64,000 bases of DNA, from NCBI GenBank assembly GCA_039096225.1, contig JBBPEB010000020.1, positions 62,001 to 126,000 on the forward strand, in the 5' to 3' direction. Position numbers and translations under genes: made by a program. A model generated the notes under the pieces. The model saw nothing but the letters and a program-made list of their open reading frames with translations. It was not told where the DNA came from and did not search any database. Positions 52,870-54,935 of the stretch are shown here, one piece after another. This stretch comes from Blastocystis sp. Blastoise (lineage: Eukaryota > Protista > Bigyra: Opalinata). The first letter of the stretch is position 1. Each line of letters opens with the position of its first letter.

Positions 52870-54935
52870 ATGATGAACCGTCTTCTCTGTTTTTCAAAGA
52901 AAGCTATAGAACAGACTTTTAAACAAGGTAGATTCCTTTCAAGTCTCCATGTAGTTCGTCCCTTGTGTAGTTCTTCAATGTATATTGCGAAAAATAACTT
53001 GTTATACTCTGAATTTGGACAATTCATTTCAAAAAAGCATTTTAGTACATCACCTTCAGATCAAATGGATGCTTATACTCTGTATGAGTCTATCGTTAAT
53101 ATGCCTATGGATCCTAAGAAACAACAGAGCTTCTTTATTGATCAATTAAAGCAAAAGAACTTTGATAATGTGTATGAAACTTGTAAAATTATGCTTGAGT
53201 CAGATGAAACTCAGGATATTGCATTAATGGGACTTGTTGAATTATCTGGAGCTCATTATCTTAAAGCAACTAATTTAATAGGTAAAACATTGTATGGTCG
53301 TTATAAAAGTCTTGCTCATGTCAAGTATATATATATATATATATATTATTATATATTTATTAAGTCAATAAATAATTATATTTATTATTCTATTATATAT
53401 ATACATATATATAGTGAGAAAGAAGCGGAATCCACTTTAGAATATTGTACTGGCTATTTAAAACAAGCAATTGAACAAGGATTTATTGAATCTAAAGTAT
53501 ATATATATATATATATATAGTTATATGAATGAAATATATATTTTTGATAATTAATTAAAATAGTTTTAATAATGATGTTTTATAATATGAATATGTTTTG
53601 TAATATTATATTCTTTATATTATTAAGCTTGATAATAATAATAATAATAATAATAATAATAATAATAATAATAATAATAATAATAATAATAATAATAATA
53701 ATAATAATAATAATAATAATAATAATAATAATAATAATAATAATAATAATAATATATATATGTAGGTGACATTAGCAATGATATATATGGATGCAAATGA
53801 AGGTAAACAACGCGAAGAAGGGAAAACACTTCTCGAAGAAGCATTTACCGCGGGGGAACCAGAAGCTTATTATACTAAAGCTCATGTATATACTATACTA
53901 TACTATGTTATACTATTATATTATATTATATTATTATTTATTATCTATTCTCTATTATATATTATTTATTATCTATTATTTATTATTTATTATATAATGT
54001 ATATAGATATTATTAAAAGGTCAATATGGATATGAAATGAACAGAGAGAAAGCCATTGAATATCTTCAATTAGCAGCTCAATATGATCATGTTGATTCTC
54101 TATACAGTTTGGGTATTCTCTCTATTGGTCAGAATGATATTCCTTCTGCTATTACATACTTTGAACGGGCTATGGACAAAGGAAGTAATAAAGCTATTAA
54201 TGCTTTACTTAATATATATATACATATATATACATATATATACATATATATACATATATATTACTTAATATATTTAATTATTAATAATATAATAATATAA
54301 TTATATATATATATAATAGATATATACTGATAAAGATATGATATCGAATGGTGATGATCATATATTTTCCCTCCTTCAAAAAGGCGCCAAATTACATGAC
54401 TCGAACTGTCTCTATAATATAGCTCTTGTTTATTTATATGGAGAGTATATATAATATATTATTATATATATTATTATATATTATATATATATTATTATAT
54501 ATTATTATATATTATTATATATTATTATATATTATTATATATATAGATATAATCAAAATCAAGATTATGAAAAAGCGCGTAATTATTTAATTCAATCAGG
54601 AAAGGCGGGAAATGCTGAGGGATATTTTCATGCTGCTTCCATGTATTATAACGGTGATCACGTGACACAGGTATACATTACATAATTCTATTCTTTATTT
54701 ATCATTTATATGTATATATATATATTTATAAATCTATTATTATTATTATAATATATATATATATATTTAGGATTTTAAAAAAGCATTTGAATATTATAAA
54801 CTTTCAAGTGATTTAGGAAATATGAATGCTATGTTTAATTTAGGTGTAATGTATTTAAAAGGTGAAGGAACGGATAAGAATGAATTAAAAGGAAAAGATC
54901 TTATTGAATTAGCCAAGAAACATAGAACTCAATAA
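52870..54935 (+). CDS. Sel1-like repeat protein with a mitochondrial/MRO-type presequence; paralog of 690-2879
   Basis: MMNRLLCFSKK...KKHFSTS presequence. SLR units (AAQYDHVDSLYSLG, GKAGNAEGYFHAASMYYNGDHVTQDFKKAFEYY, DLGNMNAMFNLGVMYLKGEG). Shares four intron positions and phases with 690-2879. Intron 54214-54319 has no GT donor. Confidence 0.85.

What the first reader, a model, noticed from the sequence alone, without database searches (positions are those of the whole stretch)
54214..54319. The same intron in the second Sel1 paralog also lacks GT (AT...AG): a conserved non-canonical donor?
Exon ...GCT TTA CTT AAT | ATATATATAC...ATAATAG | ATA TAT ACT GAT. The 106-nt intron contains no GT at all, has an in-frame TAA, and sits at the homologous codon and phase of the TT-AG intron at 1502-1626, about 52 kb away in a highly diverged paralog. 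Apart from the U12 intron, every other intron I spliced in the window starts with GT. In both cases intron +1 equals the first base of the downstream exon, within a 6-7-nt junction repeat. Two readings: (a) a spliceosome that tolerates NTATAT donors, or a slid register, at repeat-flanked junctions, possibly a regulated rate-limiting intron; (b) an assembly artefact in which spliced reads were used to polish G to the exon base, or the biological equivalent, cDNA-mediated conversion.
Basis: partly seen in the sequence, partly recalled or inferred. Interest (0 to 1): 0.75.

Follow-up and report, generated by a model that had tools for sequence, protein, structure and literature searches.

The report
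Missing splice G, likely polishing error
Two related genes of a gut protist each carry a likely ordinary intron whose first base in the assembly is not the usual G but a copy of the next exon's first base, most likely because spliced RNA reads overwrote it during genome polishing, so this is probably an assembly error and not a new kind of splicing.

Summary
The 106-nt intron at 54214-54319 starts AT and has no GT or GC. It sits at the same codon and phase as the TT-AG intron (1502-1626) of a 26-30% identical Sel1 paralog. Both genes match NCBI proteins named Blastocystis sp. Blastoise. A spliced RNA contig runs unchanged to 54203, which excludes every in-frame upstream GT/GC donor, including NCBI's; the joint itself was not seen. 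Of 111 modelled introns, 109 are GT-AG. Among the 81 whose next exon does not start with G, both introns whose bases +2 to +6 equal the next exon's have lost the G and carry that exon's first base; all 79 with 4 or fewer matches keep it. That is the threshold at which a match-1/mismatch-4 aligner pushes spliced reads into the intron, and a simulation overwrote exactly these two donors. The apparent conservation follows from the Sel1 motif codons [L/I]-Y resembling the genome's GTATAT donor. Most likely a polishing artefact (about 0.72). No DNA reads were available, and published methods name DNA reads for polishing, so a real non-G donor remains possible (about 0.12).

The parts
54214..54319 (+). 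Phase-0 intron of Sel1 paralog 2; AT...AG as assembled, likely GT...AG in the cell
   Evidence: best of 75 in-frame junctions by homology, margins small; upstream donors excluded by RNA contig
54214..54214 (+). The suspect base: A, equal to the first base of the next exon; predicted true base G
   Evidence: not seen in DNA reads
54007..54213 (+). Upstream exon (Sel1/TPR repeats)
   Evidence: Pfam Sel1 E 2e-5; RNA contig identical over 54007-54203
54320..54444 (+). Downstream exon; opens with the same 7 bases as the intron (Ile-Tyr codons)
   Evidence: most of it is in NCBI protein P0001
54445..54546 (+). Internal control: next intron of the same gene, 4-base match to its downstream exon, G kept
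52870..54935 (+). Sel1-repeat gene, paralog 2 (7 exons, 425 aa as modelled)
   Evidence: two upstream junctions seen in the RNA contig
1502..1626 (-). Homologous phase-0 intron of Sel1 paralog 1; TT...AG as assembled, T equal to next exon's first base
   Evidence: chosen by the gene finder once non-GT donors were allowed; no RNA laid here
690..2879 (-). Sel1-repeat gene, paralog 1 (8 exons, 449 aa as modelled)

Best explanation
Both introns are likely ordinary GT-AG introns whose first G was probably overwritten in the assembly by the next exon's first base, because spliced RNA reads aligned without splicing would run on into the intron wherever the exon start copies the donor. Shown: this genome's commonest donor is GTATAT (74 of 109), and both downstream exons begin N-TAT-AT because the Sel1 motif has [L/I]-Y at this phase-0 junction. 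Inferred: a read from the spliced mRNA differs from the genome only at intron +1 and then matches for 5 or 6 more bases. An aligner scoring +1 per match and -4 per mismatch gains by extending through the mismatch only when 5 or more matches follow. Every upstream-anchored junction read then reports the exon base at +1, and a polisher that accepts an allele seen at twice the reference count writes it in. Gene finders that need GT then invent wrong junctions, as in both NCBI models.
For:: of 81 modelled introns whose next exon does not start with G, G is lost in 2 of 2 with 5 or more matches and in 0 of 79 with 4 or fewer (38, 18, 12, 7, 4 introns at 0-4 matches). Fisher p = 3e-4, or about 1 in 80 if the paralogs count as one event. 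The new base equals the exon base in both (A/A, T/T). With G put at +1 of all 111 introns, my ungapped extension rule with match 1, mismatch 4, clip 5 (BWA-MEM defaults, recalled) carried 100% of upstream-anchored reads through at these two donors and at most 16% at any other donor or acceptor. Positions +3 to +8 of both donors score at the top of the GT-donor matrix. Two other introns at identical positions in the two paralogs, and one within two columns, are GT in both. A spliced transcript running past the donor region exists. POLCA aligns with bwa mem and accepts an allele at twice the reference count (PMC7347232, passages). G1A blocks the second splicing step in yeast and in Aspergillus telomerase RNA (PMC4836653, PMC4299874, passages).
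Against: No DNA read was seen at either base, so the G is predicted, not observed. The published methods for tortoise Blastocystis assemblies name Illumina DNA for three Polypolish rounds and only 'short-read' for the POLCA round (PMC10690189, section 13 part 1). Section 6 says DNA and RNA short reads were for 'polishing and gene annotation', which is ambiguous, and I did not establish that this window's assembly was built that way. The 5-match threshold was noticed in the data before the simulation, which is my own rule and not BWA itself. With match 2/mismatch 6 scoring, four intact donors and one intact acceptor would also be hit. There are only two cases and they are paralogs. The other 109 introns come from my GT-requiring gene finder and are nearly all unverified by RNA. 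The spliced joint at 54213/54320 was not seen, and with non-GT donors allowed the finder preferred 54212/54335, which homology ranks lower by only about 2 bits.
Confidence: 0.72

Rival explanations
1. The bases are real: the major spliceosome of this lineage removes AT-AG and TT-AG introns, and this intron has kept a non-G donor since the paralogs split, perhaps as a slow, regulated step.
For: Same codon and phase in proteins 26-30% identical. Blastocystis ST1 has 59 GA-AG introns, so the genus tolerates some donor variation (PMC5608401, section 8). A primate AT-AG intron exists in ACTR10 (PMC4176328, passages). Published methods name DNA reads for most polishing.
Against: The +1 base is not conserved (A versus T) but copies the exon base, and I know no spliceosomal contact that reads exon-2 bases +2 to +6 against the donor (recalled). 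The ST1 survey lists GC, GA and AT-AC classes but no AT-AG or TT-AG. G1A blocks exon ligation. The 5-match cut-off has no biological rationale.
Confidence: 0.12
2. The bases are long-read consensus errors in AT dinucleotide repeats, unrelated to RNA reads.
For: Both donors open (AT)n or ATATATATAC repeats. One tortoise assembly used R9 nanopore reads.
Against: 74 other GTATAT donors, many followed by (AT)n, are intact. In the paralog the new base is T, which the repeat does not supply. Both errors matching the exon base has chance about 1 in 9, on top of hitting the two best-matched junctions.
Confidence: 0.08
3. cDNA-mediated gene conversion copied the exon base across the junction microhomology in the living cell.
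For: It predicts the same base identity and dependence on the junction repeat.
Against: It would have to occur and be fixed independently in two genes, each time removing the G that splicing needs. It gives no reason for 2 of 2 versus 0 of 79, and such recombination usually removes the whole intron (recalled).
Confidence: 0.04
4. The intron is a degenerate U12 intron, or an AT-AG intron edited A-to-I into a GT-like donor.
For: The window holds a U12 AT-AC intron. Blastocystis ST1 minor introns are many and 49% phase 0 (PMC10639083, passages). Edited AT-AG introns are known in human.
Against: The window's U12 donor reads ATATCCTTT, these read NTATATAT. No U12 branch motif lies near either 3' end (only CTTAAT at -56 here, none in the paralog). 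A-to-I editing cannot turn TT into GT.
Confidence: 0.04

Closest known systems
Major (U2) GT-AG introns of this genome
   Same: Length 106 and 125 nt against a median of 103, AT-rich body, TATAT at +2 to +6, TAG end, and position shared between paralogs like neighbouring GT introns.
   Different: First base is A or T in the assembly.
False corrections by short-read polishers (POLCA: bwa mem plus FreeBayes; PMC7347232, passages)
   Same: An allele seen at twice the reference count replaces the base; false corrections are a recognised class in that paper.
   Different: The specific case of spliced reads overwriting a donor G at a junction repeat was not found in print in searches (listings only).
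GA-AG and GC-AG introns of Blastocystis ST1 (PMC5608401, section 8)
   Same: Same genus, non-GT donors assigned to the major spliceosome.
   Different: They keep G at +1 and vary +2; here +1 varies.
Human AT-AG introns, ACTR10 and edited C14orf37, NUP210, CRYZL1 (PMC4176328, passages)
   Same: AT-AG termini derived from GT-AG.
   Different: No TT-AG counterpart by editing; no link to the next exon's first base in the passages seen.
AU donor of Aspergillus telomerase RNA (PMC4299874, passages)
   Same: A at intron +1.
   Different: There it blocks ligation and makes a 3' end; here the transcript continues 253 nt past 54203 and the protein needs the downstream exons.

Membership tests
Major (U2) intron | GT or GC at +1/+2 | tested here: not met
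   AT and TT as assembled; the base itself is in doubt
Major (U2) intron | Species donor consensus beyond +2, terminal AG, typical length | tested here: met
   Top score on the +3 to +8 matrix; YAG end; 106 and 125 nt against median 103
Major (U2) intron | Removed from mRNA at these boundaries | tested here: inconclusive
   RNA contig excludes upstream in-frame donors and termination in the intron; homology ranks this junction first of 75 by small margins; joint not seen
Minor (U12) intron | RTATCCTT donor | tested here: not met
   ATATATAT and TTATATAT, against ATATCCTTT at the window's U12 intron
Minor (U12) intron | CCTTAAC-type branch site close to the 3' end | tested here: not met
   Only CTTAAT at -56 here, none in the paralog
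A-to-I edited AT-AG intron | A at +1 in DNA, read as G in unspliced RNA | not testable with these tools
   No contig covered intron +1; cannot apply to the TT paralog
Spliced-read polishing artefact | Altered base equals next exon's first base and is followed by enough matches to pay for the mismatch | tested here: met
   2 of 2, with 5 and 6 matches
Spliced-read polishing artefact | Donors below the threshold are intact | tested here: met
   79 of 79; from a GT-requiring model, and runs allowing other termini found no further convincing case
Spliced-read polishing artefact | Raw DNA reads carry G, and RNA reads were used in polishing | not testable with these tools
   No DNA run held more than 0.09 of the words; no genome held; published methods ambiguous
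Sel1-repeat proteins (PF08238) | Pfam Sel1 score above the curated cut-off | tested here: met
   82.4 and 90.7 bits against 30.7 for P0001 and P0003

The most novel reading that the evidence does not exclude
Tortoise-lineage Blastocystis splices major-class introns with A or T at +1 whenever the downstream exon begins with a copy of the donor, so that the first intron base co-varies with the first exon base, and one such intron has persisted in two ancient Sel1 paralogs.
Probability: 0.12. Interest if true: 0.8.

Novelty: not a real feature. Interest (0 to 1): 0.2.

Why it matters
If the artefact reading is right, it gives a simple diagnostic for a systematic assembly error: a non-G donor equal to the next exon's first base, followed by 5 or more matches. 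About 1 such junction per 111 introns is expected by chance here, so a whole genome would hold many, each corrupting a gene model as in these two NCBI proteins and inflating surveys of non-canonical splice sites. If the bases are real, a natural U2 intron without G at +1 in two forms would challenge the near-invariant first-base rule.

Tried and rejected
No whole genome is held, so no genome-wide census or U1/U6 check was possible; Rfam found 0 families in the window and ARAGORN 0 genes. In one search, X2 covered only the exon 53766-53881 (2 differences in 116 nt), X21 gave only short low-complexity pieces and X23 nothing; no contig covered intron +1, which shows nothing about retention. A 21-nt exact pattern from the exon end found 0 metagenome contigs. 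P0003 patterns matched 62 stretches, 0 confirmed. Protein searches found no orthologue from other Blastocystis: 2 hits of 32 candidates, 1 of 190, 3 of 803; the top 150 of the representatives search were long generic Sel1 proteins apart from P0001 itself. Rejected: upstream GT at 54185 (NCBI's model, also my GT-only finder's choice) and GC at 54193 and 54202 in frame, because the contig is identical to 54203; GC 54202 to AG 54383 fits the contig by chance but is out of frame; slid registers; U12 type. Earlier findings held nothing on introns. Rows dropped before counts: four modelled introns (three from wrong-strand shadow genes, one 3' tail) and plus-strand models at 16-19 kb, one 3'-tail intron of 112, counting only hand-chosen gene regions; four boundaries were set by hand in both, two of them the introns in question.

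Full report
Observation. The stretch 54214-54319 is 106 nt, starts AT, has no GT or GC, and its only AG is terminal. Splicing it out gives a 425-aa frame over seven exons whose other five introns are GT-AG; retaining it stops translation after residue 316. The minus-strand gene at 690-2879 has a 125-nt TT...AG intron at 1502-1626. Aligned, the two proteins are 26% identical (blastp 30.5%, E 3e-53) and the two introns are phase 0 in one column. Two more introns share exact positions and one lies within two columns, all GT in both genes. Absence of an internal GT is common (6 of 40 similar-sized introns), so only base +1 is odd. No slid register gives a canonical pair.

Identity. Exon searches returned NCBI proteins WA158_006892 (P0001, KAK8800574.1) and WA158_006878 (P0003), both named Blastocystis sp. 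Blastoise, with Sel1 repeats above the Pfam cut-off. Both NCBI models avoid the non-GT donors. P0001 uses GT 54185 and AG 54335, dropping 15 residues, and starts in exon 3. P0003 swaps the end of an exon for intronic residues. My own GT-only gene finder made the same choice for paralog 2, so these look like workarounds. Against the session's Sel1 proteins, the non-GT forms scored better than the NCBI-type forms in 115 of 152 (worse in 30) and 135 of 151 (worse in 11) comparisons.

RNA. Run X1 (kind guessed as RNA) has a 1136-nt contig that joins 53885 to 54007 exactly, so it is spliced, and matches the window without a difference to 54203, where the tool stops at repeats; 253 letters lie beyond. 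This excludes all in-frame upstream GT and GC donors and termination inside the intron, whose end is 116 nt away. The joint itself was not seen. Among 75 in-frame junctions with donors at 54204-54279, 54214/54319 ranked first by homology, by margins of only 1-2 bits; with non-GT donors allowed, my finder picked 54212/54335 instead. The exact junction is therefore inferred. No DNA run was found, nor any related locus, so the base at 54214 was not checked in reads.

Census. A small Viterbi gene finder trained on the window gave 111 introns after one was dropped and four boundaries were set by hand; 109 are GT-AG and 74 begin GTATAT. For each I counted exact matches between intron and next exon from position +2. 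Among the 81 whose next exon does not start with G, the two with 5 or more matches are the two non-GT introns, and all 79 with 4 or fewer keep G (Fisher p = 3e-4; about 1 in 80 as one event). An earlier set of 106 gave 2 of 2 and 0 of 76. The four 4-match controls include the next intron of the same gene (54445-54546); one of them (48589-48663) has a doubtful donor. Runs allowing any one-off donor or acceptor gave no further convincing case. These models are ab initio and, apart from two junctions, not checked by RNA.

Mechanism. With G placed at +1 of every intron, error-free spliced reads extended by a match-1, mismatch-4, clip-5 rule (BWA-MEM defaults, recalled; my own ungapped implementation) ran through +1 in 100% of upstream-anchored reads at exactly these two donors, and in at most 16% elsewhere. 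With match-2, mismatch-6 scoring, four intact donors and one intact acceptor would also be hit, so the fit is specific to the first scoring. POLCA uses bwa mem and accepts an allele at twice the reference count (PMC7347232, passages). A paper on tortoise Blastocystis assemblies reports Flye, racon, three Polypolish rounds with Illumina DNA and one 'short-read' POLCA round (PMC10690189: outline, passages, section 6, section 13 part 1 of 2). It does not say RNA was used to polish, and I did not establish that this window comes from such an assembly; its supplements were not read and might state the inputs. This is the main evidence against. The apparent conservation needs no selection on the donor: an old phase-0 intron lies before [L/I]-Y in a Sel1 repeat, and TTA/ATA-TAT codons copy the GTATAT donor in both paralogs. 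About 1 such exon start per 111 introns is expected by chance.

Rivals. A real non-G donor (0.12) has the shared position and the genus's GA-AG introns for it (PMC5608401, passages and section 8). Against it are the co-variation with the exon base and the second-step block caused by G1A (PMC4836653 and PMC4299874, passages). Generic long-read error (0.08) does not explain 74 intact GTATAT donors or the T in the paralog. cDNA conversion (0.04) must fix a damaging change twice. U12 type or A-to-I editing (0.04) fails on donor and branch motifs (PMC10639083 and PMC4176328, passages) and on the TT case. PMC7072748 (passages) had no occurrence of the terms AT-AG or TT-AG. Searches (listings only) found no paper describing this artefact or such introns in protists.

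Verdict. The intron is very likely real and ordinary; the missing G is most likely an assembly error. Interest 0.2, mainly as a testable warning about polishing and annotation. One look at DNA reads decides it.

Noticed in passing
window 11821-11934 (-): U12-type AT-AC intron (donor ATATCCTTT, 114 nt as read by eye) in a phosducin-like gene (label recalled); joining keeps the frame.
   Followed up: partly
window 4521-4656 (-): A third exon starting N-TATAT. The modelled donor GTATAC matches for 4 bases and keeps G, but it looks exon-like; a hidden non-G donor further on cannot be excluded without RNA.
   Followed up: partly
window 52870-54935 (+) and 690-2879 (-): Both NCBI protein models are likely wrong at this junction, and P0001 (224 aa) lacks the first two exons although one RNA contig joins exon 2 to exon 3.
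   Followed up: yes
window 52870-53050 (+) and 2700-2879 (-): Both Sel1 proteins begin with about 60 residues rich in R, K, S, L and poor in acidic residues, like mitochondrial targeting sequences; no predictor was run.
   Followed up: no
window 54205-54213 and about 54262-54270 (+): The last 9 bases of the upstream exon recur inside the intron, the longest such repeat among 111 introns, but two others reach 8; probably chance.
   Followed up: partly
window 48589-48663 (-): Modelled intron with an atypical GTACTG donor and a 4-base match to the next exon; boundary uncertain.
   Followed up: no
window 14245-15603 (+): Beta-tubulin-like gene (label recalled from its sequence) without introns in an otherwise intron-rich window.
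   Followed up: no
window 34591-43039 (+) and 56853-62527 (+): Two very large predicted proteins (about 2400 and 1800 aa) with similar N-terminal and Ig-like-looking repeats, likely surface proteins; not scanned against any family library.
   Followed up: no
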